Counted from the first letter of the stretch, positions 14,324 through 57,289 are shown. The stretch: 64,000 nucleotides of DNA from Deltaproteobacteria bacterium (GCA_021813445.1 JAKAKP010000140.1:1280-65279); one strand, 5' to 3'. The notes: generated by a model not told the origin, from the letters alone. Numbers and translations: made by a program.

Positions 14324-15091
14324 TTACAAACCCTTTTTCTTCCAGTTGCGGGTCACATTGGTCAGGAAAAATTCTTTAACCAGACGGCGCCAGCCAAGCT
14401 GCGGAAAATGGCCATAGACATCGCCGACGAGCGCGCCGCCGGACGGCAAGGTTAATCCCACCGTGGTTTCCATGAGGTTCAGCAAGCGCCAGGATTCTTT
14501 GGCAATCCAGGCCTCGTTATTCTCTTTGGAAGAGAGGCTGGCCAAATTCTGCCGGAGATTGGTCGGTTTGACCTTGAACAGCCAGCCTTCGCCATAGGGA
14601 TCGCGATGGAGCAGACGGGGATTCTGACAAACCTCGGGATTGACTGCCGTGACTAGACCGTCCACCGGAGCCTCAAAGGAAGCCTTGTGCTCCTTTTTGA
14701 TCAGAGCCATGCAGATGTGATCCTGAAAAAAGACTGCGCCCACTTCGGGTAATCTCAGGGCGTCAGCCGGACCCAGTATCTTCTGGGAAAAGTCATCCAG
14801 CCCCACCCGCACTTCGCCGCTCTCTTCGAGCGCTACCCAGGCGTGGCCCCGGTGCAGATAATAGTCCTCGGGAGGGGCTTGTACCCCGAGGGCTTCCACC
14901 ATCCCCGGTTCAGGGTGGGGTTCGGGGGCTGGGCCACCTTCTTTCAGAGGGTGGTGGTCTACCCGCCAGACTGCCCCACATTTTTGACACACGCACTTAT
15001 ACTCTGACTGGGTGCCGTTCTTAGGGCCAGGAACCTCACAGACCAGCCAATGCCCGGCCATGGCCCCGCAATTCTTACAATCGAGTCTCAT
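14324..15091 (-). CDS. Zinc-ribbon / GcvH-fold protein with conserved C-terminal extension (paralog 1)
   Basis: N-terminal CKNCG...CQKCG ribbon. The core YYLHRGHAWV..VRVGLDDFSQKILGPADALRLPEVG...APVDGLVTAVN...DPYGEGWLFKV aligns with glycine-cleavage H proteins. An extra tail of about 80 aa ends in WKKK. RBS GGAGG. Confidence 0.8.
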   Translation of the reverse strand: MRLDCKNCGAMAGHWLVCEVPGPKNGTQSEYKCVCQKCGAVWRVDHHPLKEGGPAPEPHPEPGMVEALGVQAPPEDYYLHRGHAWVALEESGEVRVGLDDFSQKILGPADALRLPEVGAVFFQDHICMALIKKEHKASFEAPVDGLVTAVNPEVCQNPRLLHRDPYGEGWLFKVKPTNLRQNLASLSSKENNEAWIAKESWRLLNLMETTVGLTLPSGGALVGDVYGHFPQLGWRRLVKEFFLTNVTRNWKKKGL

Positions 15092-15136
15092 GTGATCAGT
15101 CCTCCACCAGGACGGATTTCCGCCCCGGACCTCCGG

Positions 15137-15751
15137 TTAACGTTTCTTCCAGTCCTTGATCAAGTTGGTTAAAAAGAACTCCTTAGCCAGACGCCGCCAG
15201 GTCAAACGGGGATAATGCCCGCAAACATCATCGAGGATGACCCCGCCCATGGGGAGAGCGGCTCCCACAGTGGTGCTGAGGATAAAAAGCAACCTCTGGG
15301 CCTCCTGTTCGATCCAGGTGACATTGGAATCACCGTAAAACAACTGGTCGAGATTTTGCGGCAGATTGGTGGGTTGGACCGTGAACAGCCAGCCTTCGCC
15401 ATAAGGATCGCCATGGATCAGGCCGGGGCTCTGCCGCGCCCGGGGATTGATGGAAGTGATAATGCCGTCCACCGGGGCTTCGATGGAGGCTTTGCGTCCT
15501 TCCCGGAACAGCGCCAGGCACACATGGTCCTGATAGTAGGTCTTGCCGATTTCGGGCAATTGCACTTCGTCCGCCGGCCCCAGGATCTTCTGGGAAAAGG
15601 CGTCCAAACCGACCCGCACCAGGCCCGAGTCTTCAGGCACCGCCCAGGTGTGGCCCCGGTGCAGATAATAAATATCGGTCGGCACTTGGAAGCCGTAGAC
15701 GTCCACAAGCTGATGCCTTGGGGCGCGGGTTTCGCAACTGGCACCGGTCAT
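15137..15751 (-). CDS. GcvH-fold protein with conserved C-terminal extension (paralog 2, no zinc ribbon)
   Basis: Same core and tail as paralog 1. ATG at 15751 has GGAGG 8 nt upstream; the track start at 15766 is a GTG. Confidence 0.8.
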   Translation of the reverse strand: MTGASCETRAPRHQLVDVYGFQVPTDIYYLHRGHTWAVPEDSGLVRVGLDAFSQKILGPADEVQLPEIGKTYYQDHVCLALFREGRKASIEAPVDGIITSINPRARQSPGLIHGDPYGEGWLFTVQPTNLPQNLDQLFYGDSNVTWIEQEAQRLLFILSTTVGAALPMGGVILDDVCGHYPRLTWRRLAKEFFLTNLIKDWKKR

Positions 15752-15811
15752 GACTTGGACCTCCACCTCAAGCCTTCCTCTGATCTGATCCCCACCTTGG
15801 CATGACGGCCA

Positions 15812-16559
15812 TCAGGATTTTTTCTTCCATTCCCGGGTCAGGCTGGTGAGAAGAAACTCCTGGACCAGGGGCCGCCAGCCCAACTGGGGATAATTTCCAT
15901 AGACGTCATCAATAATGGTGCCGCCATCCGGCCCGGTGACTCCCACTTCGCTTTCCATGAGATTGATTAAGCGATGGGACTCCTGATGCATCCAATCGGC
16001 CGTGGCGTCTCCGGAAAACAGGTTGGTCAAATTGCGCTGGAGGTTGATGGGCCAGACCTTGAACAGCCAGCCGGCGCCAAAAGGATCGTTATGGATCAGG
16101 CGGGGATTCTCACGCACCTTGGGATTGATTGCCGTAATGGCGCCATCCACCGGGGCGAGAAAGGAAGCCTTCCGGCCCTGTCTGACCAGGGAGAGGCAGA
16201 TGTGATCCTGATAGTACGTCTTGCCGAGATCTGGCAGCTTCACCTCGTCTGCGGGCCCGAAGATCTTCTGGGAAAAGGCGTCCAGTCCCACCCTCACTTC
16301 GCCGGTGTCTTCGAGCACGGCCCAGCTATGTCCCGGGTGCAGGTAACAGTCACTGGCGGGCACTCCAAAACCGAAGATTTCCACTTCCTGGTTATTCCTG
16401 CTCTTCATGTCTGCCATTCCTTCCTTAAAAAGGTTGTGTTTTTCGATGAACCAGGTTCTTCCCACATTTGCGGCAGATGCACTTGCCGAGGGGTTTAGTT
16501 TTGTCGTGATAAAAGATCTCACTCCGCCAAGGCCCGCATCTTTTGCAAAGGATTTCCAT
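15812..16559 (-). pseudogene. Zinc-ribbon / GcvH-fold paralog 3, split by a 1-nt frameshift (or two coupled ORFs)
   Basis: A 44-aa ribbon ORF (MEILCKRCG...CRKCGKNLVHRKTQPF*, 16559-16425) is followed by the GcvH-fold body in another frame. The frame of the body upstream of its first Met reads GRTWFIEKHNLFKEG, homologous to paralog 1 AVWRVDHHPLKEGG. AGGAGG RBS precedes 16559. Confidence 0.7.
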
Positions 16560-46498: not shown

Positions 46499-47227
46499 TC
46501 ATTTGCCTTTGGAAGACGCCGTAACCCCGGCTCTGCGGAACGCCCACCAGATCCAGAACTTGCCCACCACGATGACGCCCCCCGCAAAAACTGCCTCCAT
46601 GACGTAGGTGAACCAAGGGGGCAGCTGGAGCCAACGCGCCACCAGGGGGTCGGTAAAGATCATTTCCCCGGACACCTTCCCCAGGATCGCCGCCCCGAGA
46701 TAAATGATAATGGGATAGCGGTCCATGAGCAAGGCCAGCAAGTTGCTGCTGAAAACCACGAAGGGGATGGACAGGGCCAGACCGAAGATCAGGAGAACCA
46801 GGTCGCCGTGGGAGGCCCCGGCCACCGCCAGGACGTTGTCGGTGCTCATGGTGAGGTCGGCGATGATGATCAGCCACATGGCCTGCCAGATGGTCTTGCC
46901 CGCCTGGCCGTGATCCTGCTCCGGCGCGCCCTCCAGGAAGAGCTTCACCGCGATCCAGGCGATGAGCAGCCCGCCGATGAGTTTCACCAATGGGACATTC
47001 AGCAGTTGGGCCACGAAGAAAGTGAGGACCACCCGCAGCAGCACCGCAGCCCCCGCGCCCAGGAAAATCCCCGCCTGTCTCTGCTTCCGGGGCAGGGACC
47101 TCACCGCCATGGCAATGACCACCGCGTTGTCCCCGGCCAGGATCAGGTCAATGATGACGATATTAAAGATGCCGACGCAAAAGGCCCAATTAAGCCGGTC
47201 CAGTCCCCAGGTTGCCAGGTCCATCAT
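46499..47227 (-). CDS. TerC/YjbE-family integral membrane protein
   Basis: ...IVIIDLILAGDNAVVIAMAV... and ...IIADLTMSTDNVLAVAG..., the duplicated TerC motif. The ATG at 47227 shares its A with the upstream TAA (TAATG). Confidence 0.85.
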   Translation of the reverse strand: MMDLATWGLDRLNWAFCVGIFNIVIIDLILAGDNAVVIAMAVRSLPRKQRQAGIFLGAGAAVLLRVVLTFFVAQLLNVPLVKLIGGLLIAWIAVKLFLEGAPEQDHGQAGKTIWQAMWLIIIADLTMSTDNVLAVAGASHGDLVLLIFGLALSIPFVVFSSNLLALLMDRYPIIIYLGAAILGKVSGEMIFTDPLVARWLQLPPWFTYVMEAVFAGGVIVVGKFWIWWAFRRAGVTASSKGK

Positions 47228-49887
47228 TATCCTTCCCCATGCAGGATGATGCCGGACCAGAAGTAAGGATGGGGTTCTTTGGCCCGCACCGCCTGCCGGG
47301 CCGCCTTGAGGGCCTGGATCTTGGGTTTGCCGGCTTTCAGGGCCTGGTAAAAGTCGAGGTAGAATTTGAGCGACTCGTCCACCGGGATGTTCCACAGGGT
47401 CACCATGACGCTGCGGGCCCCGGCCTGCTGGAAGGCCCGGGCAAAGTTGAGGACCCCTTCCCCCTGCATCACCTGGCCCACCCCGGTCATGCACGCGGCC
47501 AGGGTCACCAGGTCGGCGTCCAGCTTGAGGTAGAGCACATCGCTGAAGGTCAGGAAGCCGTCGTCCGGCTTTTTATTTTCCACCTGGCTGAGCACCAGGG
47601 TCGGCTCCTGCACCCCGGCCAGCTTATCCGCCAAAAACCCGTGGGTGCCGAAGAAGAGATAGCGGTACTGCCCCAAAGGAACGCGGCGCAATTTAGTTTC
47701 GGTGGCGTTGACGTCCAGGAGCACTTGGGGCGGTTGGGGCTTCTCCTGGAAGAGGGCCGCCAGCTCCAGCACGGTCTGGCGGGTCTCCGGCAGCGGCGGG
47801 AACTCCAGGCGGCCCCAGCCCCTGCTGGTGGCCGCCATGGTCAGGGCCTTTTCCGGTCCCGCAGGTTTGATCTCTCCCGCCTTCTCCTTGCCGGTTTTAT
47901 AAGCCAGATAGCGGCTGCTGCCTCTATCAAAGATGGGGTCGCCCAGAGCAAACAAGGGTTGACTGGCTCTCGCCAGCCCCAGATGCCGGTTCAGGGCCAG
48001 GATGGCCGCGGACTGGGAATAGGTCACCGGCCAGCGGTCCCCCACTAAAGCACACTTGCTCCAATCCGGCCCCGTCTGCACCACCAGGGACTCAAAGGGA
48101 AAAGCCCCCAAGGCGCCATCCGGCACGATGATCAGATGGGCGCCGGGATTTACCCCGGCCAGGGCCGGAGCCAGGATCTCCTGGTATAAAGAGGCCGCCG
48201 CGCCGATGGAAAAACGGTTCAAGTCTGCCCGATGCAACACGCTTTGCCGGAAAGGAGCCAGCATGGCCCCCAGGCGTCTCTCCAGGGCCTCCTGCCCCAG
48301 GGGCAGCCGGAAGACCTGGGTCTTGACCCCGGGCTCCACCCGGAAGAGAAAACTTTCTTTCTCCCCCAGGGAATATTCCAGGAGGACCTCTCCGGGTTTT
48401 AACGGCAGCTCCTGGGCCTTATAGGGCCGGGGATAGTGCAGGGCCGCATACCGGGGGGCGCGGCGGCGCAGCTCCGCCACCAGCCCATCCAATTCTCTTT
48501 GCAGGGCCTCCCATTTCCCCTGGAACTCCAGCACGGGCTCCTCTCGGCGCTCCGGACCTCTCCCCCGTTCCTGGTAGCTCTCCAGCCTCTGGGCCTCCAA
48601 GGTCTGAATCCGTTCCTGGATGCTTTTTTCCTTGGCCGCTAAATCCGGGGGCAGCTCAGAATTGCCCCGCTCGGCCCCGGCCGCCACGGCCTCTAGCAAA
48701 GAGCGGGCCTTGATGGATTCGGCAAAGTAGAAGGCTATGGCTGCGGCGTCCGGTCCATAGGTTTTCAGATTGCCGGGGACAGGCCCTCCTTTTTGCGCCA
48801 TTTCTGCAAGCAAGCCCACCATCCCCTGGTAGGCGCGGAAATAGCCGCCCAGACGCCCTCCTTCAAAAAAGCTGGCCCGTTCCCCCGGAGTCCGGCCGCG
48901 CAATCCTTCGATCTGGCGCACGGCTTCCGAGAAAGCCTCCAGGGCTGCTTGCTCCTGCCCCGTCCCCTTGAGCGCCAGCCCCTTTTGCGTATAAAACTGG
49001 GCCTGGTATTGGGGGGCCATCCAGGCCCAGGGAGTCAACTGGGGGAGCAGGTTCAGGGCCTCGCCATAACGCCCGGTGGCCAAATAAAGCTCCACCATGC
49101 CCTGCTTGCCCTGACGGTGTTTGGCCCGGCGGAAACAGGCCTCGGCCTGGCCATAATCTTTCTTGAGCAGGTAGAGATAGCCCAGATTTTTGAGGCTCAC
49201 CCCGGTCCACAGGTTGTCCGGTCCGAACAACTTTTCCCGGATCTGTACGGCGCGCTGGGCCAAAGGCAGGGCTTGGTCGTAAGAGCCCATCTGGGCATAG
49301 AGCAGCGCCAGATTGGTCAGGGCGGCTGCGGTCAGGGGCGTGTCCGCCTCCCCCGCCCGGTCGCTGATCTTTAAGCCTTTCTGCACCATGTGCAGGGCTT
49401 TTTCATGAGCCCCCATCTGCCCATACAGGAAGCCCAGGACAATCAGGCTTTGGGCGGTTTGGGGGTTATCCGGGCCCAAGGCTTTCTCTCGGATATGCAA
49501 GGACTTCTGGGCCAGGGGCAAGGCCTGGTCAAAGAACCCGAGCAGCGCGTAGGTCTTGGCCAAACGGGCCATACAGGCTGCGGTGAGGAGATGCTCCGGC
49601 CCCAGGGCTTTCTCGCTGCGCTGCAAGGCCTGCTGGTACACAGAAATGGCGGGATAGTTCTTGTTGGCGTTCTCTAAGGCCATGCCCTTTTTGAGCATTT
49701 CCCTGATTTCCGCGGCCTCCGGCTTCGAGTCGGCGGGCAAGACTTCTGCCGGCGGCGCCGCTTCTTTATCGACCCGCCCGTGGAACTCTCCCTTTCTGGC
49801 ATGGGCGGCAGTTCCCGGCCAACTCAAAAGCGCACAGCAGAGGCAAATGGCAATGAGCCGCAGCATCTTTTCCTCCCTGATCCGCAA
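47227..49887 (-). CDS. Exported TPR-repeat / CHAT-domain (caspase-like) protein
   Basis: Signal peptide, about 7 TPR_12-like repeats (...LAxxYxxxGxYdqAlpl...), and a C-terminal CHAT domain with candidate His (FFGTHGF) and Cys (LAACMTG) residues. Confidence 0.9.
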   Translation of the reverse strand: MRIREEKMLRLIAICLCCALLSWPGTAAHARKGEFHGRVDKEAAPPAEVLPADSKPEAAEIREMLKKGMALENANKNYPAISVYQQALQRSEKALGPEHLLTAACMARLAKTYALLGFFDQALPLAQKSLHIREKALGPDNPQTAQSLIVLGFLYGQMGAHEKALHMVQKGLKISDRAGEADTPLTAAALTNLALLYAQMGSYDQALPLAQRAVQIREKLFGPDNLWTGVSLKNLGYLYLLKKDYGQAEACFRRAKHRQGKQGMVELYLATGRYGEALNLLPQLTPWAWMAPQYQAQFYTQKGLALKGTGQEQAALEAFSEAVRQIEGLRGRTPGERASFFEGGRLGGYFRAYQGMVGLLAEMAQKGGPVPGNLKTYGPDAAAIAFYFAESIKARSLLEAVAAGAERGNSELPPDLAAKEKSIQERIQTLEAQRLESYQERGRGPERREEPVLEFQGKWEALQRELDGLVAELRRRAPRYAALHYPRPYKAQELPLKPGEVLLEYSLGEKESFLFRVEPGVKTQVFRLPLGQEALERRLGAMLAPFRQSVLHRADLNRFSIGAAASLYQEILAPALAGVNPGAHLIIVPDGALGAFPFESLVVQTGPDWSKCALVGDRWPVTYSQSAAILALNRHLGLARASQPLFALGDPIFDRGSSRYLAYKTGKEKAGEIKPAGPEKALTMAATSRGWGRLEFPPLPETRQTVLELAALFQEKPQPPQVLLDVNATETKLRRVPLGQYRYLFFGTHGFLADKLAGVQEPTLVLSQVENKKPDDGFLTFSDVLYLKLDADLVTLAACMTGVGQVMQGEGVLNFARAFQQAGARSVMVTLWNIPVDESLKFYLDFYQALKAGKPKIQALKAARQAVRAKEPHPYFWSGIILHGEG

Positions 49888-49904
49888 TGGCGGGGCTGAT
49901 TTCC

Positions 49905-50702
49905 CTAATTACATTGGGTCCGGACCCAGGCTCTCAGATCATTAAACCCCTTGTCCCCCGGCTTTTTCTGCAAGATCTGACTAAGCATCCGGTCCATTTC
50001 CGGGTATTGCCGGTGTTGCGCCAGGACTCCCAGGAAATATAATTCCGGAGTGAAATCGTCGGGGGCCGCCTTTTTCTTGAGGTCCTGGTAAACCGCCCTG
50101 GCCGCCTGGATATCCTGGCGGTCCGCAGCCGTGAGGGGAGCGGCCTGAGGACGCACCGGACAAACCGGCGCCATGGTCTGGATGACCCCGGAACGGCCCG
50201 GGGGGGCCTGCTCCATCATGGGTGTCGCGCCTCCGCGCTCCGCCCCTAATCCCCTGACCTGAGTGGCCCCGGAGAAACTGGCCCCGCCCCGGGCCAGGAG
50301 GAAAGGCGCGGCCGCCAGCTTTTTGGCGGCGGACGCGGGCAGCGTCTTCACCGCGGGGGGAGCTTGCTCCTTGCCGCCCAGGGCGGCGCTTTCCTGGTCC
50401 CCGGCCTGCAACCGGGCCGGACCGCTCCAGGTCTCCTGGCGGCCGCTGGTGAAGTAGAGGAGCTGCAACACCCCTGCCCCGGCCAACTGGAAGTGATCGC
50501 CCTGGCGCACCTTCATGAAGGCCTGCGCCTTAGCCGGCTGTTTTTCCTGGTCATTCCAGTAGGTGGCCTCGCCGCTCAGTTTGGTCACCAGGCCCACATC
50601 TGGGGGCGAGGTCTGGGCCAGGGCCGTAGCGGCGCAAAGCATGAGGGCGGCCACTCCCGGAAGGAAAGACTTTTTGGGAATCTTGATGATGAACTGCATC
50701 AC
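49905..50702 (-). CDS. Exported FecR-domain-like protein
   Basis: Signal peptide. GLVTKLSGEATYWND...MKVRQGDHFQLAGAGVLQLLYFTSGRQETW resembles the FecR beta-sandwich signature. The assignment is tentative. Confidence 0.5.
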   Translation of the reverse strand: MMQFIIKIPKKSFLPGVAALMLCAATALAQTSPPDVGLVTKLSGEATYWNDQEKQPAKAQAFMKVRQGDHFQLAGAGVLQLLYFTSGRQETWSGPARLQAGDQESAALGGKEQAPPAVKTLPASAAKKLAAAPFLLARGGASFSGATQVRGLGAERGGATPMMEQAPPGRSGVIQTMAPVCPVRPQAAPLTAADRQDIQAARAVYQDLKKKAAPDDFTPELYFLGVLAQHRQYPEMDRMLSQILQKKPGDKGFNDLRAWVRTQCN

Positions 50703-50793
50703 TTTTTCCTCCCACGTAATTTCCTTTAGATAGTGGTTAAATGGTATCCAGCAATATTAAAGAATAATTGATTACTGAAAACTAACAACTATC

Positions 50794-52641
50794 TTATTCT
50801 TCCAGGCCTTTCACCTCCAGGACCACCACCGGCTCCTGGCGGCCCTTGACCCGGCGTTCTTCCCGCCCCCCGGTCACCACTCCCGGCCCTGCCGCCTCGA
50901 TGGTGGCCTCACTGGCGACAATCTGCCACCCCAGTTCCTTGGTCAAGCCCTCCAGGCGGGAGGCCGTGTTCACGGTATCGCCGATGGCGGTGAATTCAAA
51001 CCTTTGCGGGGTGCCGATATTGCCCACCACGGTCTCGCCGGTATGCAGGCCGATGCCGATGTGGAATTCCGGGATATTTTGTCCGGGAAAACGCGCCGCC
51101 ATCCAGTCTTGAAATCCATGGGCCGCGGCGGCCATGGCCAGGGCGGCCCGCAGCGCCCGGCGGGCATGGTCCGGCTGGGGGTGGGGGGCCCCGAACACGG
51201 CCATGACCGCATCTCCCACAAACTTATCCACCATGCCCCCTTCTGCTAGAATCGGCTCGCAGGCCCGGCTGAAATAATTATTGAGCATCTCCACCACTTC
51301 ATGGGGATGCAAGGACTCGGACATGGTGGTGAAATTGCGGATATCGGCAAACAGGACCGTGACCGTGAAGGCCTCCCCTCCCAAATCGGGGGGCTTGCCG
51401 GAGGCCAGGATTTTCTCCATCACTTCCCCGGACACGTAACGCCCGAAGATTTGCCGCAGGCGGGCCCGTTCCCGTTCTTCCCCGGTGAGCCTCAGGCCCA
51501 GGACGGCCAGGTAGCCCAGCACCAGGGCCAATTGCGGCGCGGCCGTGGGCAGCAGCCAGTCCCGCCGGAACAGGAGATACGAAAAAACTGCCAGCAGCAG
51601 CCCCAGCAGGCCCAGGAGCGCCAGTCCCCGTAGCGGCGCAAAGCGGAAAAAGAGGGCGACGCCCAGGGCCAAAATGGCCGCCAGGTAAAGCAGCCGCCAA
51701 AGTGCGGGTAGTGGCCGGGGAAACCGCCCCCGGAGCAAGGTCTCCACGATGTTGGCGTGGACTTCCGGCCCGCTCATCAGCCGGGGGGGGATATTAAAGA
51801 ACCCCCGGGCATAAGGGGTTTGATGATTGTCCTGCATCCCCGAAGGTTCGTAGGCGACAATCACCACTTTGCCCTTGAGGGCCTGGATCTGCGGGTCCCG
51901 GGCGGCATCCGGGCTGAGGAAGCGCTGGAAGGAAACCCGGGGGATGGTCCCCGGCGGGCCGCTGAAGGCGATGGCCTTCAGCGGCTGGAAAGTCTCCGGG
52001 ACCTCCTGGCCCGCGGCCCGGGCGGCCAAAAGTTCGGCAAAGGTGACCCACCCCAGCCTTTTGCTTACGGGAAATACGGGCGCGAAGCGACGGACCACTC
52101 CGTCAGGATCATTAAAGAACCGGACCAGGCCCACGTCGTCCAGCTTCCCCGGCAAAGAAGCCCAGTAATCAGGGAGGGGGAGCAGGAGTTTGGCTTTGTC
52201 CTGGGCGTCAAAGGCCAGGTCTCCGGCCAGGATTACCTTGCCGGCGTCCAGTTGTTCCCGGAATGCCAGGTCATAGGTGCGGCTGAGCTGGCTTTCCGGC
52301 AGCTTGATCTTTTTCAGCCACGATTCGGCGCTGACGGAAAAGAGAAAATCCAGGCCGATGACTCTGGCCCCTACCTCCCGCAGAATCTGGATCACCCTGG
52401 CAAAATGCGGGCTCCAGAAGACCAGGGGCTCATCCTGGTGCTCCAGCCGCGTCTGGTCATCGATGGCGACAATGGCCGTATGCCGGGGTTCGTAAAGCCG
52501 GCCCGCCAACTGATGCCAGAGATCGGTGTAGCCGTTCTCCGGCCCTTGCAGCCAGGCGTCCCGGGTGGCCCATTCCGCGCCTGCGGCCAGCAAGACCACC
52601 ACCAGAACGCCATAGAGAATCTTTTTCTTCAAGGTCACCAC
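50794..52641 (-). CDS. CHASE2-sensor class III adenylate/guanylate cyclase
   Basis: N-terminal TM, an extracytoplasmic CHASE2 region of about 300 aa, and 3 TM helices. The cyclase core shows VTVLFADIRNFTTMSE, GDAVMAVFG and GLHTGETVVGNIG. Confidence 0.9.
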   Translation of the reverse strand: MVTLKKKILYGVLVVVLLAAGAEWATRDAWLQGPENGYTDLWHQLAGRLYEPRHTAIVAIDDQTRLEHQDEPLVFWSPHFARVIQILREVGARVIGLDFLFSVSAESWLKKIKLPESQLSRTYDLAFREQLDAGKVILAGDLAFDAQDKAKLLLPLPDYWASLPGKLDDVGLVRFFNDPDGVVRRFAPVFPVSKRLGWVTFAELLAARAAGQEVPETFQPLKAIAFSGPPGTIPRVSFQRFLSPDAARDPQIQALKGKVVIVAYEPSGMQDNHQTPYARGFFNIPPRLMSGPEVHANIVETLLRGRFPRPLPALWRLLYLAAILALGVALFFRFAPLRGLALLGLLGLLLAVFSYLLFRRDWLLPTAAPQLALVLGYLAVLGLRLTGEERERARLRQIFGRYVSGEVMEKILASGKPPDLGGEAFTVTVLFADIRNFTTMSESLHPHEVVEMLNNYFSRACEPILAEGGMVDKFVGDAVMAVFGAPHPQPDHARRALRAALAMAAAAHGFQDWMAARFPGQNIPEFHIGIGLHTGETVVGNIGTPQRFEFTAIGDTVNTASRLEGLTKELGWQIVASEATIEAAGPGVVTGGREERRVKGRQEPVVVLEVKGLEE

Positions 52642-53121: not shown

Positions 53122-53257
53122 TCCGGGAAAAGAGGTCCCCGACTATGGCGGGACTGCCAGGAAACCTAGCTCTTTGGTTGTGTGTCTGGCTTTTGGCAGC
53201 CTCGCTGCTGGCCGTCCCCGGCTCCTGGGCCAGGCCCACCTCGCCGCAGCAGACCCG
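53122..53257 (+). pseudogene. Duplicated 5' fragment (RBS, signal peptide, first propeptide residues) of the C10 peptidase gene
   Basis: About 135 nt align with 55612-55745, including a 29-nt exact run CCTGGGCCAGGCCCACCTCGCCGCAGCAG. The peptides are WLLAASLLAVPGSWARPTSPQQTR and WLLAALLLAVPETWARPTSPQQAR. Homology ends abruptly at about 53258 in AT-rich DNA. Confidence 0.65.
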
Positions 53258-53369
53258 GCGAACGATCAATATTGTCATAATTATCATCCTGGCCGAATGT
53301 GTCGATAACCTATGTGTTGCCGCGCAGTTATAATGTTCTGGATCAGAACGACAAGATGGGGAAAGCCAA

Positions 53370-53990
53370 ATGAATATAAAATTCCTCAAAGCAGCCTTAT
53401 TGGCGGGGGCTGTGCTTCTTCTAGTTCTTAATGCGGGCTATGCTATGCAACCTCCCCCTCCTCCCTTAAATCTTACAAAATTCAAGGACCTCATATCCCT
53501 GGCGGATATCATTGCGGTCGGCAAAATTGGTGCGGTGCGGCAAACCGATAAGTTGGTTAACGGGGAAATGCGCCGGACGGTGGAAGCCGACTTAAGCATT
53601 GAAAAGCTGTTAAAAGGCAAAGTGCCAGCAAAGAACCTTACTATTCAGGAATCCTATCCGGTCCTGAACCCTCCTGCGCCAGGGGCTGCGAGCAAAGGTG
53701 GAAATGAGTCCAAAGGGATGATTGTGGGCATGAAAGCCGGGCCCAGCGCTTATCATGGACAGTACTCAACGGGTATGCGGATAGTAGTCCTGCTTGAAAA
53801 AGCCCCAGGAACCCAGGGATATAGACCTTTGGGTTCCGGTTCGTATGATAAGTATCTCTGTGAGTTTTTGCTGGAGAAGGATGGCATTAAAACCCTCTAT
53901 TTCAGATTTGCCGAAGATATGAGCCATTACGCAAAATCTGAAGACCATTTCGTGCAATTAATTAACCGCTTGTGCAACCCAGGTTCATGA
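53370..53990 (+). CDS. Secreted hypothetical protein (206 aa)
   Basis: Signal peptide MNIKFLKAALLAGAVLLLVLNAGYA and a poly-Pro stretch. No recognised domain. It is the first gene of the peptidase island. Confidence 0.6.
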   Translation: MNIKFLKAALLAGAVLLLVLNAGYAMQPPPPPLNLTKFKDLISLADIIAVGKIGAVRQTDKLVNGEMRRTVEADLSIEKLLKGKVPAKNLTIQESYPVLNPPAPGAASKGGNESKGMIVGMKAGPSAYHGQYSTGMRIVVLLEKAPGTQGYRPLGSGSYDKYLCEFLLEKDGIKTLYFRFAEDMSHYAKSEDHFVQLINRLCNPGS

Positions 53991-54003: not shown

Positions 54004-55323
54004 ATGAATATCCGGGCCAGGAATGCCTTTTCGTACCTTGTGCTGAGCCTTTTGGGATTATTGCTGTATGCCGGGCTGGCATTTGCCCAGCAAACTGGCA
54101 CCAGCAACCTGCCTATCAATCAATACGGCATACAGACGGACAACCCCTATGTGGTGAACCGGTTTATCTGGAATGGCCAACTGGTTGACGAGATTATTGT
54201 GCCCGGGAGACCGACACCGCCTGTCGGCTTTAAAGGGGAGGCGGCCAGCATCCCGGAGCCCAACCCTGCTGCCGGCATCAATAGTCTTAGCAATGTGCCT
54301 GCCCTGGAATGGTGTTTTGGCTGCTCTGCGACCTCCGCGGCCATGATGTTCGGCTATTATGACCGCACCGGTTGGCCCAATATGTATACCGGTCCCACCA
54401 GCGGCGGCGTCTTTCCTCTAACCAACGCGTCGTGGCCGCATGTGACGATCAATGGGGAAGACCGGGCCCAGTGCCCCCTCAGCGCCACCCGCAACGGTCT
54501 AGATGGGCGGACCATCAAAGGACATGTCGATGATTACTGGGTGAGGGTTGATGACCCGGGACCAGATCCATTCATCGGCCAGTGGACCGAGCACACCAAA
54601 GGGGATTGCACCGGTGACTTTATGGGCACGAACCAATCTTTGGTTTCCAATTCTGATGGAAGTACAACGTTCTACAATTATACCAATGGAGCCCGTCTGG
54701 TCGATTATACAGGATCAGAACCTGGGAGGCGGGATGGCTGCCATGGTATGAAGCTGTTTGTGGAGTCCCGGGGATACCAGGTGTCAACGAACGGGAACTT
54801 TTCCCAGTACATCTATGGATACAACGGGAATACCCAGGGGTTCACTTTTGCGGAGTATAAGACTGAAATCGATGCCGGCCGTCCGGTTCTCATTCAGCTC
54901 CAGGGTCATACCATGCTGGGTTTTGGCTATGATGACAGCGGCTCGGTGGTCTATATTCATGACACTTGGGATAACAGCGATCATACCATGACCTGGGGCG
55001 GCTATTATGGAGGCATGCGGCACTATGCGGTGACTGTAGTCCAACTGGTGGCTGCGCCGCCCGCTACTTTAACCATCACGGCCTCGGCCGGGACCGGCGG
55101 CTCTATTTCACCTTCCGGAGCCATCACGGTCAATTACGGGGCAAATCAGGTCTTTACTATTACTCCGTCAACTGGCTACCATGTGGCTGCCGTCCTGGTG
55201 GACAGCGCCTCAGTAGGGGCAGTGACCAGCTATACCTTCAGCAACGTCACTACCGACCACACCATTTCCGCCAGTTTCGCAAAAAACAAGGCCATTCCGT
55301 ACATGCAACTATTGCTGAATTAA
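54004..55323 (+). CDS. Secreted papain-fold cysteine peptidase (C39-like/C10-like) with C-terminal beta-repeat domain
   Basis: Signal peptide. Candidate nucleophile in EWCFGCSATSAAMMFGYYD, candidate His in LQGHTMLGFGYDD, then IHDTWD. The C-terminus LTITASAGTGGSISPSG...TPSTGYHVAAVLVDS...ISASF resembles InlB-B-repeat-type domains. Confidence 0.7.
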   Translation: MNIRARNAFSYLVLSLLGLLLYAGLAFAQQTGTSNLPINQYGIQTDNPYVVNRFIWNGQLVDEIIVPGRPTPPVGFKGEAASIPEPNPAAGINSLSNVPALEWCFGCSATSAAMMFGYYDRTGWPNMYTGPTSGGVFPLTNASWPHVTINGEDRAQCPLSATRNGLDGRTIKGHVDDYWVRVDDPGPDPFIGQWTEHTKGDCTGDFMGTNQSLVSNSDGSTTFYNYTNGARLVDYTGSEPGRRDGCHGMKLFVESRGYQVSTNGNFSQYIYGYNGNTQGFTFAEYKTEIDAGRPVLIQLQGHTMLGFGYDDSGSVVYIHDTWDNSDHTMTWGGYYGGMRHYAVTVVQLVAAPPATLTITASAGTGGSISPSGAITVNYGANQVFTITPSTGYHVAAVLVDSASVGAVTSYTFSNVTTDHTISASFAKNKAIPYMQLLLN

Positions 55324-55633
55324 TTAAAGGGAACAGCCGTACTTGTGATTAAGGGCGAAAACACGGTTCGGGGTTTGCGTCAGATTAAATATACGGGATA
55401 ATTCCCCAACCGGGGCTATCTTTCTTGGTTCGCAGGCGGTAGTATAACGTTCAACCCCTAATTAATAGGCCGTTCTTAGCCTTTTGTCAAAAGAAGGAGA
55501 GGGAGGTATTTCACCCACCCCGCCATCTTGCCGATATATTTTTTTGAGCTCTTCCTAGTATAATTCCCAGGTGCAGGACTACCTTGGGAAACCTTGGGTT
55601 CTAGACTCAATTCGGAAAAAGAGGTCCCCGTCC

Positions 55634-57175
55634 ATGCCAAGACTGCTGAGAAACGCAGCCCTGGGGCTGTTCATCTGGCTTTTGGCGGCCTTGCTGCTGG
55701 CCGTCCCCGAGACCTGGGCCAGGCCCACCTCGCCGCAGCAGGCCCGCACCGCAGTGCTCAACTGGTTAGGCTTAGACGCCAGGCCTCTGGGCGCGCGTAT
55801 GGGCCGGCAGGTCAAGGAAGTCCAAACCTTCAATTATGAAGGCGCTCCCGCTTATTATGTGGTGTACCTGAACCCCTCGGGCCTGGTCATTCTGCCGGCC
55901 GACGACCTGGTGGAGCCCATCATCTGCTTCATGCCCTCCGGGTATTATGACCCCTCCCCCGGGAATCCCCTGGCGGCCCTGGTGAGCCGGGATATTCCGG
56001 GCCGGGTCCTGGCGGCCCGGGCCCTGGAGGCCAAGGGGGCAGAGGCTCTGGCTCCCGCCAGCCGCCAGGCCAGAGCCCGGCGCCGCTGGGACTTGCTGAC
56101 GCAGGCCACCGCGCCCGAGGCCGCGGACCTCGGCGTCAGCACCATCTCCGACATCCGGGTGGGTTCCTTTGTCCAGAGCCGCTGGGACCAAAGTACGGTA
56201 AGCGGCCAAAACTGCTACAATTACTATACTCCCAATAACTATGTGTGCGGCTGCGTGGCCACCGCCATGTCCCAACTCATACGCTACTGGCAGTGCCCCT
56301 CTGGCGGTATCGGCGTCCACAGTTTCCAGATATGGGTGGACGGTGTCTCTCAATACAAGAATACCCGGGGCGGTGATGGCTCCGGCGGCGCCTATGAATG
56401 GAGCAGCATGGTGCTGGATCCCAAAAACTCAGGAGTCAATGACGCCCAGCGGGCGGCCATCGGCGCCCTCACTTACGACGCCGGTCTGTCGGTGCACATG
56501 AGCTACACCTCGGGCAGTTCCAGCGCCTATACCGAAGATGCGGCCGCCGGATTTGTTAACACCTTCGGTTATAGCAATGCCATTTACTATGCCCCTTATA
56601 GCAATATTCCCGATGACATCCGCAATGCCATGGTCAACCCCAATCTGCACGCCCGCTACCCGGTCTTATTCGGCATCACCGGGGATGGCGGCCATGCCAT
56701 CGTTTGCGACGGTTATGGCTACAACTCCTCCATCATGTACCACCACCTCAATATGGGCTGGTCTGGCGCCGACGACGCCTGGTACAATCTGCCCACGATT
56801 GACACCACCTATTACAATTTTAACAGCGTCTATAAATGCATCTATAACGTCTATCCCACCGGTTCCGGGGAGATCATCGCCGGCCGGGTGACCAATGCCA
56901 GCGGCAGCCCCTTAAGCGGGGTGACGGTGAGCGCCAGCGGCGGCTACTCCGCCACCACCGACGACAAAGGCATCTATGCCCTGGCCAAGGTCCCCTCCAA
57001 CACCACCTTTACCGTCACGGCCAGCAAAACAGGATATAGATTCACCTCCCAGACGGTGACCACGGGCATCAGTGTGAATAACAGCTCCGCCACCGGGAAT
57101 AAGTGGCCCATCGACTTTACGGGGTCCAAAGCTGGGCGCATCCCAGGCTCAGTGCTGCTGCTTCTGCTGAATTGA
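55634..57175 (+). CDS. Secreted peptidase C10 (streptopain-like) family cysteine protease with CarboxypepD_reg-like C-terminal domain
   Basis: Signal peptide and propeptide. SRWDQS...YYTPNNYVCGCVATAMSQLIRYWQCP carries the Cys. GDGGHAIVCDGYGYN carries the His. HHLNMGWSG follows. The C-terminus is GRVTNASGSPLSGVTVSA...TDDKGIYAL. ATG at 55634. Confidence 0.85.
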   Translation: MPRLLRNAALGLFIWLLAALLLAVPETWARPTSPQQARTAVLNWLGLDARPLGARMGRQVKEVQTFNYEGAPAYYVVYLNPSGLVILPADDLVEPIICFMPSGYYDPSPGNPLAALVSRDIPGRVLAARALEAKGAEALAPASRQARARRRWDLLTQATAPEAADLGVSTISDIRVGSFVQSRWDQSTVSGQNCYNYYTPNNYVCGCVATAMSQLIRYWQCPSGGIGVHSFQIWVDGVSQYKNTRGGDGSGGAYEWSSMVLDPKNSGVNDAQRAAIGALTYDAGLSVHMSYTSGSSSAYTEDAAAGFVNTFGYSNAIYYAPYSNIPDDIRNAMVNPNLHARYPVLFGITGDGGHAIVCDGYGYNSSIMYHHLNMGWSGADDAWYNLPTIDTTYYNFNSVYKCIYNVYPTGSGEIIAGRVTNASGSPLSGVTVSASGGYSATTDDKGIYALAKVPSNTTFTVTASKTGYRFTSQTVTTGISVNNSSATGNKWPIDFTGSKAGRIPGSVLLLLLN

Positions 57176-57261: not shown

Positions 57262-57289
57262 GGCGGACCTGCGGGTCCGCCCTGGTTTT
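57262..57289 (+). terminator. Candidate rho-independent terminator after the C10 peptidase gene
   Basis: GGCGGACC-tgcg-GGTCCGCC, followed by CTGGTTTTA. Confidence 0.5.

What the first reader, a model, noticed from the sequence alone, without database searches (positions are those of the whole stretch)
55285..57175. Both peptidases end with the same short tail ...IPxxx(L)LLLN-COOH, a possible novel sorting or processing signal
Seen: the 54004 gene ends NKAIPYMQLLLN*, and the 55634 gene ends KAGRIPGSVLLLLLN*. The DNA ends are CTGCTGAATTAA and CTGCTGAATTGA. The tails follow unrelated beta-rich C-terminal domains and are too short (5-7 hydrophobic residues) for a TM anchor. They differ from PEP-CTERM, LPXTG, GlyGly-CTERM and Por-type C-terminal domains as I know them. 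Inference: this could be a shared C-terminal recognition tag for secretion, surface attachment or maturation.
Basis: seen in the sequence. Interest (0 to 1): 0.6.

Follow-up and report, generated by a model that had tools for sequence, protein, structure and literature searches.

The report
Leucine-tail tag on secreted proteins
Two neighbouring secreted peptidases end in the same ~10-residue leucine-rich tail; the tail is conserved, occurs on at least seven unrelated secreted protein families of Thermodesulfobacteriota, and sits where relatives carry known sorting signals, so it is most likely an undescribed protein-sorting or retention signal.

Summary
Both peptidase genes (C39_2-like, 54004-55323; I69/C10, 55634-57175) end in ...IPYMQLLLN and ...IPGSVLLLLLN. 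The same tail ends 72-81 of the 120 closest C10 homologues and about 13-15 of 120 C39-like homologues. It also ends GloVer repeat proteins, an InlB-B-repeat protein, an 'NNxGQVVW' repeat protein and two proteins of unknown family. Consensus: basic/Gly linker, then (P)-Φ-Φ-x-L-L-L-L-[N/D/Q/E]-COOH.

- Every full-length carrier has a Sec signal peptide.
- Leu codons vary freely, and the linker to the last folded domain varies from 9 to 18 residues.
- AlphaFold shows the tail as a short free helix after the last domain.
- In homologues the same position holds PEP-CTERM, the CFI-box sorting motif, the GCX_COOH module, dockerin-like modules or TM+basic anchors.
- A PSSM trained on C10 tails alone scores held-out families at 10-23 bits, against a background maximum of 8.2 bits in 1,411 ORFs.
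- No Pfam or NCBIfam model matches, and five literature searches found no description.

The tail lacks the TM helix and Arg cluster of all established sorting signals. The best reading is an orphan, non-tripartite C-terminal sorting or retention tag read by an unidentified partner. Neither the function nor the machinery has been demonstrated.

The parts
54004..55323 (+). Gene for a secreted C39_2-like cysteine peptidase (439 aa) with a C-terminal divergent InlB B-repeat domain and the Leu-tail
   Evidence: ORF; Pfam PF13529 1.2e-08 and PF18998 8.7e-05; called as a gene on public contigs
54004..54087 (+). Sec signal peptide of the C39-like peptidase (MNIRARNAFSYLVLSLLGLLLYAGLAFA|QQ); the cleavage site is inferred by eye
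   Evidence: Sequence; the N-terminal pattern is conserved in homologues
55294..55320 (+). Leu-tail 1: IPYMQLLLN-COOH
   Evidence: PSSM 10.2 bits against a background maximum of 8.2; related forms [LM]P[WF][LI]xLLLL[NDE] in C39-like homologues
55634..57175 (+). Gene for a secreted C10 (streptopain-family) cysteine peptidase (513 aa): I69 propeptide, C10 domain, CarboxypepD_reg beta-sandwich, linker, Leu-tail
   Evidence: Pfam PF01640 2.1e-41, PF13734, PF13620; gene call of 513 aa; AF2 model with mean pLDDT 83.9
55634..55720 (+). Sec signal peptide of the C10 peptidase (MPRLLRNAALGLFIWLLAALLLAVPETWA|RP)
   Evidence: Sequence; an AWA|KP-type site is conserved in homologues
57119..57139 (+). Flexible basic/Gly-Ser linker (TGSKAGR) between the last beta-strand and the tail
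   Evidence: pLDDT drops from above 90 to about 57 after residue ~499; linker length varies from 9 to 18 aa among homologues
57140..57172 (+). Leu-tail 2: IPGSVLLLLLN-COOH
   Evidence: PSSM 21.8 bits; predicted as a short isolated helix, residues 505-512
57262..57281 (+). Intrinsic-terminator-like hairpin about 90 nt after the C10 stop codon; this shows the tail codons are not part of a terminator
   Evidence: 8-bp stem, 7 GC pairs, T-run

Best explanation
The tail is a modular C-terminal sorting or retention tag ('Leu-tail') for Sec-exported proteins of Thermodesulfobacteriota. Its anatomy is a flexible basic/Gly-Ser linker of 9-18 residues, often a Pro, two or three hydrophobic residues, a nearly invariant run of three to four leucines, and then one or two polar or acidic residues at the free C-terminus. 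Proposed mechanism: the protein is exported through Sec by its N-terminal signal peptide. In the periplasm the tail forms a two-turn Leu-faced helix dangling from the last domain. An unidentified protein partner (a receptor or a processing enzyme) reads that helix close to the free carboxylate. That partner then decides the protein's destination: retention on the cell envelope or surface, or hand-over for passage across the outer membrane. The tail therefore plays the role that PEP-CTERM, CFI-box, GCX_COOH, T9SS or dockerin modules play in homologues from other lineages. Shown: existence, conservation, modularity, link to a signal peptide, positional equivalence to known sorting modules, and appendage-like structure. 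Inferred: recognition by a protein rather than by lipid, and the localisation outcome.
For: (1) Conservation in orthologues. The tail ends 81/120 (regex), 79/120 or 72/120 (PSSM >=10 bits) of C10 homologues, and about 13-15/120 C39-like homologues. (2) Modularity. The same tail follows three different penultimate domains within the C10 family. It also ends TIGR03803 GloVer proteins, a 689-aa InlB-B-repeat protein and a further ORF in L150, a 452-aa 'NNxGQ[IV]VW' repeat protein in L157 and an unknown protein in L145. (3) A PSSM trained on C10 tails only scores the held-out families at 10-23 bits, against a background maximum of 8.2 bits in 1,411 ORFs. About 140 unrelated CarboxypepD_reg proteins score at most 0.9 bits. 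(4) All full-length carriers have Sec signal peptides. (5) Positional equivalence. GloVer relatives carry PEP-CTERM at the same spot (at least 29/120). C39-like relatives carry CFI-box (NF041763), GCX_COOH (NF045639) or TM+basic anchors. C10 relatives carry dockerin-like ends. In L153 three different secreted proteins all carry GCX_COOH. (6) Selection acts on the peptide: the Leu codons are CTA, TTG, CTG, CTT, CTC and TTA, and the terminator lies about 90 nt downstream. (7) Leu is specifically conserved rather than generic hydrophobics: 88, 100 and 95 of 102 unique tails at the last three run positions. In addition, 93/102 tails end within two residues of the run. This argues for a sequence-reading partner that needs proximity to the C-terminus. 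(8) AF2 shows a confident beta-sandwich ending at ~499, then a low-pLDDT linker and an isolated helix at 505-512. (9) Tail genes cluster: window 2, L005 2, L006 3, L008 3, L150 3, L151 2.
Against: No receptor or sorting enzyme was found. The window contains no sortase, exosortase, rhomboid, CPBP or T2SS gene, and no neighbour recurs across loci. No whole proteome could be scanned, so enrichment among signal-peptide proteins rests on about 0.3 Mb of loci chosen around carriers. The metagenome-wide positional test was uninformative, and the bare 9-mer PWLxLLLL[ND] also occurs internally in unrelated families. Pro is not invariant, and some tails carry extensions of up to 14 residues. There are no experimental data on localisation or processing. 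A passive hydrophobic role is not excluded.
Confidence: 0.58

Rival explanations
1. Passive hydrophobic mini-anchor or self-association element. The 7-9 residue Leu-rich helix dips directly into one membrane leaflet (or another hydrophobic surface), or bundles with other tails to form oligomers or micelle-like assemblies. No dedicated recognition protein or processing is involved.
For: The tail is short, strongly hydrophobic and helical, and hangs on a flexible linker. No candidate enzyme or receptor was found in any neighbourhood. Precedent from general knowledge: penicillin-binding proteins 5/6 are held on the membrane by a C-terminal amphipathic helix.
Against: Lipid anchoring tolerates any hydrophobic residue, yet positions -2 to 0 of the run are Leu in 86-98% of 102 unique tails, with very few I, V, F or A. 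The preferred polar or acidic end residue, the frequent Pro at fixed spacing and the strict closeness to the C-terminus are not needed for lipid insertion. Eight hydrophobic residues are too few to span a leaflet stably, and the helix is not amphipathic.
Confidence: 0.2
2. A shortened derivative of PEP-CTERM that is still handled by an exosortase-type enzyme. The [IV]P start and Leu-rich continuation would be the remnant of VPEP plus the start of the TM helix.
For: Tails often begin [SA]-[IV]-P, as PEP-CTERM begins V-P-E-P. In GloVer proteins the tail replaces PEP-CTERM at exactly the same place.
Against: No hit to the PEP-CTERM model or any other CTERM model at E<=10. The second Pro and the Glu of P-E-P are absent. 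The TM helix and Arg cluster that define all exosortase, sortase and rhombosortase substrates (bioRxiv 10.1101/2023.06.07.544157) are missing, and the end is acidic rather than basic. The tail ends at a conserved point rather than at random truncation points.
Confidence: 0.08
3. A peptidase-specific maturation or latency peptide. The tail folds back on, or is cleaved by, the cysteine peptidases that carry it. For example, the C39-like enzyme might cut at the Gly-Gly often found in the linker.
For: The two window carriers are both cysteine peptidases and are adjacent. 'GG' occurs in the linker of 22/72 tail-positive C10 proteins. C39-family enzymes classically cut after Gly-Gly (general knowledge).
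Against: Non-enzymatic repeat proteins (GloVer, InlB-B repeat, NNxGQVVW repeat) carry the same tail. In the AF2 model the tail does not dock on the C10 domain. Most C10 loci with tails have no C39-like neighbour. Gly-rich linkers are common anyway.
Confidence: 0.06
4. Chance or compositional similarity, or a DNA-level feature (CTG repeat, terminator) with no meaning for the protein.
For: The tail is short and of low complexity. Leu is the commonest residue. The same 9-mer occurs internally in unrelated proteins.
Against: 0 of 1,411 background ORFs reach the tail scores. The tail is conserved over orthologues down to about 50% identity, with varying Leu codons. The terminator is about 90 nt downstream. 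The tail recurs in seven families.
Confidence: 0.02

Closest known systems
PEP-CTERM / exosortase sorting signal (TIGR02595)
   Same: It sits at the extreme C-terminus of Sec-exported, often multi-paralog, surface or secreted proteins. It is modular across unrelated families. It starts with a Pro-containing motif followed by Leu-rich residues. It occupies the same position in GloVer proteins.
   Different: The Leu-tail has no P-E-P, no membrane-spanning helix (only 4-9 hydrophobic residues) and no Arg cluster. Its end is polar or acidic instead of basic. There is no HMM hit.
CFI-box putative sorting motif (NCBIfam NF041763)
   Same: It is a very short (about 14 aa) non-tripartite C-terminal motif after a Gly-rich linker, on the same C39-like secreted peptidase family. 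It is only a 'putative' sorting motif with no known machinery.
   Different: CFI-box is built around an invariant Cys-Phe-Ile. The Leu-tail has no Cys and a Leu run. The tails do not hit the model.
GCX_COOH '3-coathanger stack' C-terminal domain (NF045639), T9SS C-terminal domains and dockerin-like ends
   Same: These are alternative C-terminal modules found at the same position on homologous C39-like, C1 and C10 peptidases in other lineages.
   Different: They are folded domains of about 40-100 residues. The Leu-tail is a 10-12 residue peptide.
Eukaryotic receptor-read C-terminal peptides (KDEL/HDEL ER-retrieval signal; PTS1 -SKL peroxisomal signal)
   Same: From general knowledge, these are very short signals that must sit at or next to the free C-terminus and are read by a receptor. 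This matches the Leu-tail's strict end position and sequence-specific conservation.
   Different: The sequence, compartment and domain of life all differ. No bacterial receptor is known. This is an analogy of mechanism only.
C-terminal amphipathic-helix membrane anchors (E. coli PBP5/PBP6 type)
   Same: A C-terminal helix on a periplasmic, Sec-exported enzyme that has no TM segment.
   Different: Those helices are about 18-20 residues, amphipathic and poorly conserved in sequence. The Leu-tail is 8-9 residues, uniformly Leu and sequence-conserved.

Membership tests
Tripartite C-terminal sorting signals (LPXTG, PEP-CTERM, GlyGly-CTERM, PGF-CTERM, MYXO-CTERM etc.) | Signature motif recognised by the family's curated HMM | tested here: not met
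   NCBIfam scan of both whole proteins at E<=1 and of seven isolated tails at E<=10 gave no hit. The same scan did detect CFI-box and GCX_COOH in control C-termini.
Tripartite C-terminal sorting signals (LPXTG, PEP-CTERM, GlyGly-CTERM, PGF-CTERM, MYXO-CTERM etc.) | Hydrophobic segment long enough to span the membrane (about 15-20 residues) after the motif | tested here: not met
   The hydrophobic run is 3-6 residues, at most about 9 counting the residues after the Pro.
Tripartite C-terminal sorting signals (LPXTG, PEP-CTERM, GlyGly-CTERM, PGF-CTERM, MYXO-CTERM etc.) | Cluster of basic residues (usually Arg) at the C-terminus | tested here: not met
   The residue after the Leu run is N, D, Q or E in 91/102 unique tails, and extensions are acidic. 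The definition of the architecture is taken from bioRxiv 10.1101/2023.06.07.544157.
Tripartite C-terminal sorting signals (LPXTG, PEP-CTERM, GlyGly-CTERM, PGF-CTERM, MYXO-CTERM etc.) | Cognate sorting enzyme (sortase, exosortase, rhombosortase, archaeosortase or myxosortase) encoded in the same genome | not testable with these tools
   Whole genomes could not be retrieved. None is encoded in the 64-kb window or in about 0.3 Mb of related loci.
Generic prokaryotic C-terminal sorting signal (operational criteria of Haft et al.) | Located at or very near the C-terminus | tested here: met
   93/102 tails end within two residues of the Leu run.
Generic prokaryotic C-terminal sorting signal (operational criteria of Haft et al.) | Multiple occurrences per genome on otherwise unrelated proteins | tested here: met
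   Single contigs carry 2-3 carriers of different families: L006 has GloVer x2 plus C10; L150 has C10 plus an InlB-B-repeat protein plus an unknown; L157 has C10 plus a repeat protein; the window has C39-like plus C10. A whole-genome count was not possible.
Generic prokaryotic C-terminal sorting signal (operational criteria of Haft et al.) | Carriers have N-terminal signal peptides | tested here: met
   All 14 full-length carriers inspected in loci, and the C10 homologues with an intact N-terminus, have one. This was judged by eye, not with a predictor.
Generic prokaryotic C-terminal sorting signal (operational criteria of Haft et al.) | Restricted taxonomic range that matches a candidate processing enzyme | tested here: inconclusive
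   All 12 named tail-positive C10 hits are Thermodesulfobacteriota or 'Deltaproteobacteria' (one MAG is labelled Proteobacteria). Planctomycetota homologues (named hits and L012), the L013 and L014 homologues (unclassified bacterium; Verrucomicrobiota) and the Desulfopila homologue (L011) lack it. No enzyme could be profiled.
CFI-box putative sorting motif (NF041763) | Cys-Phe-Ile core after a Gly-rich stretch; HMM score at or above 15.9 bits | tested here: not met
   There is no Cys in the tails and no HMM hit, whereas a CFI-box control scored 21.4 bits.
T9SS C-terminal sorting domain | Folded beta-sandwich C-terminal domain of about 70-100 aa recognised by the TIGR04183 or type-B models | tested here: not met
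   No NCBIfam or Pfam hit of that kind. The tail is about 11 residues after the CarboxypepD_reg domain.
Type I secretion C-terminal signal | Substrate lacks an N-terminal signal peptide and is exported in one step by an ABC/MFP/TolC system | tested here: not met
   All carriers have Sec signal peptides.

The most novel reading that the evidence does not exclude
The Leu-tail is the address label of a wholly new bacterial protein-sorting pathway. A periplasmic or outer-membrane receptor (or transpeptidase) would read a two-turn leucine helix next to the free C-terminus. This would be a bacterial counterpart of KDEL/PTS1-type signals rather than of sortase-type tripartite signals. It would direct a whole set of hydrolases and repeat proteins to the cell surface of syntrophic and sulfate-reducing Thermodesulfobacteriota.
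Probability: 0.35. Interest if true: 0.85.

Novelty: new variant of a known kind. Interest (0 to 1): 0.68.

Why it matters
All experimentally established short C-terminal sorting signals of prokaryotes share one design: motif, TM helix, Arg cluster. Each led to the discovery of a dedicated enzyme (sortase, exosortase, archaeosortase, rhombosortase, myxosortase). A conserved, modular tag that breaks this design implies a different recognition principle and an undiscovered partner. In practice it gives a simple sequence rule for flagging part of the exported or surface proteome of Thermodesulfobacteriota. These organisms include syntrophs and sulfate reducers that are important in sediments and anaerobic digesters, and their secreted peptidases and repeat proteins are mostly annotated as 'hypothetical'. 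It also defines a clear query for phylogenetic profiling to find the machinery, and it might be usable for surface display. One carrier, the C10 peptidase of Desulfolutivibrio sulfodismutans, is from a named, sequenced species, so the idea may be testable in culture.

Tried and rejected
(1) Tail-only profile search of the 5.8-billion-protein database. 

(2) DNA pattern for P-W-L-x-L-L-L-L-[N/D], to test whether matches pile up at ORF ends. The viral collection gave 14 random hits, which served as a negative control. It was dominated by unrelated internal motifs: desaturase-like PWLNLLLLNFxxHNAHH, a TRAP-like TM segment, and a recurrent out-of-frame gut sequence. Only L145 was a true tail, so the test was inconclusive.

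(3) Genome-collection scan with the C10 protein. It returned only 7 loci, which was useful for taxonomy but too few for profiling.

(4) Exhaustive HMMER search with the last 104 aa (CarboxypepD_reg plus tail). It was swamped by giant multi-repeat proteins and served only as a control showing that the tail is not part of that fold.

(5) AF2 of the C39-like protein. The model was poor (mean pLDDT 47.6), so nothing can be said beyond a low-confidence terminal helix.

(6) Search for a sorting enzyme by neighbourhood. Nothing recurs. The ~200-aa protein upstream of C39-like genes is also present with a tail-less C39-like gene, so it belongs to the peptidase and not to the tail. The DUF697 membrane protein in L006 occurs only there.

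(7) Literature. Five full-text searches on tail strings, sorting-signal terms, choice-of-anchor/CFI-box, GloVer/PEP-CTERM and motif keywords found no description.

(8) Readthrough past the stop codons. The in-frame sequence after each stop has no TM or Arg cluster (read), so the tails are not truncated annotations of a longer signal.
Full report
**1. What is in the window**

Two adjacent plus-strand genes encode secreted cysteine peptidases.
- Gene 54004-55323 (439 aa) has a Peptidase_C39_2 domain (PF13529, 1.2e-08) and a divergent InlB B-repeat (PF18998).
- Gene 55634-57175 (513 aa) has an I69 propeptide, a C10 streptopain-family domain (PF01640, 2.1e-41) and a CarboxypepD_reg beta-sandwich. 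Public gene calls agree on these boundaries.
- The first ends ...NKAIPYMQLLLN* (tail 55294-55320) and the second ...KAGRIPGSVLLLLLN* (tail 57140-57172).
- Both proteins begin with Sec-type signal peptides.
- A terminator-like hairpin lies about 90 nt after the second stop (57262-57281), so the CTG-rich tail codons are not part of it.
- The in-frame sequence beyond either stop shows no TM segment or Arg cluster, so these are not truncated longer signals.

**2. Is it more than chance?**

Yes. Only these two of 511 stop-to-stop ORFs of at least 60 aa in the window end this way. I built a 12-position PSSM from the tails of C10 homologues only and scored the C-termini of all ORFs of at least 150 codons. 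In 0.94 Mb of unrelated metagenomic and viral loci, 1,411 ORFs scored a mean of -19.6 and a maximum of 8.2 bits. The window tails score 21.8 (C10) and 10.2 (C39-like).

**3. Conservation in orthologues**

- Of the 120 best C10 homologues (100-50% identity), 81 carry the tail by regex, 79 by a stricter rule and 72 by PSSM at 10 bits or more.
- Within that family the tail follows at least three different penultimate modules...TTGNxWGxDF (CarboxypepD_reg)...GSDCGWVDKVVY (an extra ~130-aa domain) and ...GFPFIIEG.
- The spacer between the last conserved domain motif and the Leu run varies from 9 to 18 residues.
- Of the 120 best C39-like homologues, about 13-15 carry a sharper version, [LM]-P-[WF]-[LI]-x-L-L-L-L-[NDE]1-3.
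- Leu codons in tails from different loci use CTA, TTG, CTG, CTT, CTC and TTA, so selection acts on the peptide.

**4. Other families**

Scanning every ORF in loci fetched around carriers found the tail on unrelated proteins:
- Two TIGR03803 'choice-of-anchor tandem repeat GloVer' proteins next to a C10 gene in a Syntrophobacteraceae MAG: L006...SSIPIFQLLLLDH and ...LSVPILELLLLQQ.
- A 689-aa InlB-B-repeat protein (...ALPGMQLLLLLDN) and a further ORF (...YLPFQLLLLD) in L150.
- A 452-aa 'NNxGQ[IV]VW' repeat protein (...SLGHLQLLLSD) in L157.
- A protein of unknown family in L145 (...YLPWLPLLLLDE).

These held-out families score 13.5-21.5 bits with the C10-trained PSSM. All full-length carriers have signal peptides. 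A search with one GloVer carrier found four more GloVer proteins with the tail.

Pooling 102 unique tails, and counting from the last hydrophobic residue as position 0:
- Leu occupies 88, 100 and 95 of 102 at positions 0, -1 and -2, and 64 of 102 at -3.
- Pro is the commonest residue at -6 and -7.
- I, L, Y or V dominate at -5.
- K, R, G or S dominate at -10 and -11.
- The next residue is N (33), D (28), Q (18) or E (12).
- 68 tails end there and 93 end within two residues.

**5. Position-equivalence with known sorting modules**

This is the strongest argument for function.
- In the GloVer family, at least 29 of 120 relatives carry a textbook PEP-CTERM (VPEPS...LL...RRRR) exactly where the five Thermodesulfobacteriota-type members carry the Leu-tail.
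- In the C39-like family the same position holds the CFI-box putative sorting motif (NF041763, 21.4 bits), the GCX_COOH '3-coathanger' module (NF045639) or TM+basic anchors.
- In the C10 family, Planctomycetota and Desulfopila homologues end in dockerin-like modules and another lineage ends in ...RFYRV.
- In one genome without Leu-tails (L153), a C39-like peptidase, a C1 peptidase and a 675-aa protein all end in GCX_COOH. Each lineage therefore puts its own C-terminal module on its secreted proteins.
- All twelve tail-positive C10 hits that carry a taxon name are Thermodesulfobacteriota or 'Deltaproteobacteria': Desulfobaccales, Syntrophales, Syntrophobacteraceae and Desulfolutivibrio sulfodismutans, plus one MAG labelled Proteobacteria.

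**6. Structure**

An AF2 model of the window C10 protein (mean pLDDT 83.9) has the beta-sandwich ending near residue 499 with pLDDT above 90. A low-confidence linker follows, and then an isolated helix at 505-512 with pLDDT about 57-65. About 140 unrelated CarboxypepD_reg proteins lack the tail (at most 0.9 bits), so it is not an extension of that fold. The model of the C39-like protein was too poor to use (mean pLDDT 47.6).

**7. Comparison with what is known**

The established prokaryotic sorting signals (LPXTG, PEP-CTERM, GlyGly-CTERM, PGF-CTERM, MYXO-CTERM and relatives) are defined by three parts: a motif, a membrane-spanning helix and an Arg cluster (bioRxiv 10.1101/2023.06.07.544157). 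The Leu-tail has only 4-9 hydrophobic residues and a polar or acidic end. It hits none of the curated models, even at E<=10 on isolated tails, although the same scan detects the 14-position CFI-box. It is therefore not a member of any of those families. It does meet the generic operational criteria for a sorting signal:
- it is terminal;
- it is present on several unrelated signal-peptide proteins per contig;
- it is taxonomically restricted.

Five literature searches found no description. Absence from these libraries is not proof that nobody has noticed it.

**8. Mechanism**

I consider a receptor- or enzyme-read tag most likely (about 0.58). The reasons are the Leu-specific conservation, the fixed polar end and the need to be next to the free C-terminus. 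Those are hallmarks of peptide recognition (as with KDEL or PTS1 in eukaryotes) rather than of lipid insertion.
- A passive mini-anchor or self-association element is the main rival (about 0.2).
- A degenerate PEP-CTERM (about 0.08) and a peptidase-specific latency peptide (about 0.06) are disfavoured by the missing TM and Arg parts and by the non-peptidase carriers, respectively.
- Chance is excluded.

**9. What is missing**

- No partner was found. The window holds regulators and amino-acid and 2-oxoacid catabolism genes, but no sortase-like, rhomboid, CPBP or T2SS genes.
- No neighbour recurs across twelve loci.
- Whole proteomes could not be scanned with the tools.
- The metagenome-wide positional test failed for technical reasons.

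Noticed in passing
window 53124-53257 (ORF 53146-53334, + strand): This is an 82%-identical DNA copy of the start of the C10 gene (55613-55746: ribosome-binding site, signal peptide and RPTSPQQ). It gives a 62-aa ORF that public pipelines call as a gene. It is probably the 5' remnant of a lost tandem C10 paralog, since the syntenic locus L005 (and also L008) carries tandem C10 paralogs.
   Followed up: partly
window 53370-53990 (+); also L007 9333-10001, L151 7691-8311 and 9420-10004, L153 9367-9777: A ~200-aa secreted protein with no Pfam or NCBIfam match (motif MQPPPPPL right after the signal peptide) sits immediately upstream of C39_2-like peptidase genes, often overlapping their start. This holds whether or not the peptidase has the Leu-tail. 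It looks like a dedicated partner (inhibitor or chaperone?) of this peptidase family.
   Followed up: partly
window 47227-52641 (- strand); syntenic in L005 3614-9408: A three-gene module lies next to the peptidase genes and is conserved in synteny in a related contig: a CHASE2-domain adenylate/guanylate cyclase, a ~265-aa protein of unknown family, and a TPR-CHAT (caspase-like) protein. It may be a signalling unit, and it is possibly unrelated to the peptidases.
   Followed up: no
window 14324-16522 (- strand): Three tandem paralogs each have a glycine-cleavage H-protein (GCV_H) domain with extra N-terminal sequence (255, 209 and 236 aa).
   Followed up: no
L153 10001-17761: In a genome lacking Leu-tails, a C39-like peptidase, a chagasin (I42) plus C1 peptidase pair and a 675-aa protein all end in the GCX_COOH '3-coathanger' module. 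This suggests that module is likewise a lineage-wide C-terminal tag for secreted proteins.
   Followed up: partly
P0135, P0169, P0173, P0177, P0187, P0191, P0193, P0199 (C39-like homologues): Several C39-like homologues end in a Gly-run plus CFI[ST]T (CFI-box). This is a second very short non-tripartite C-terminal motif in the same protein family, and it too has no known machinery.
   Followed up: partly
L006 8642-9907: A DUF697/TIGR01620-like membrane protein is wedged between two Leu-tail GloVer genes and a Leu-tail C10 gene. It is the only membrane protein found inside a tail-gene cluster, but it was seen in just this one locus.
   Followed up: no
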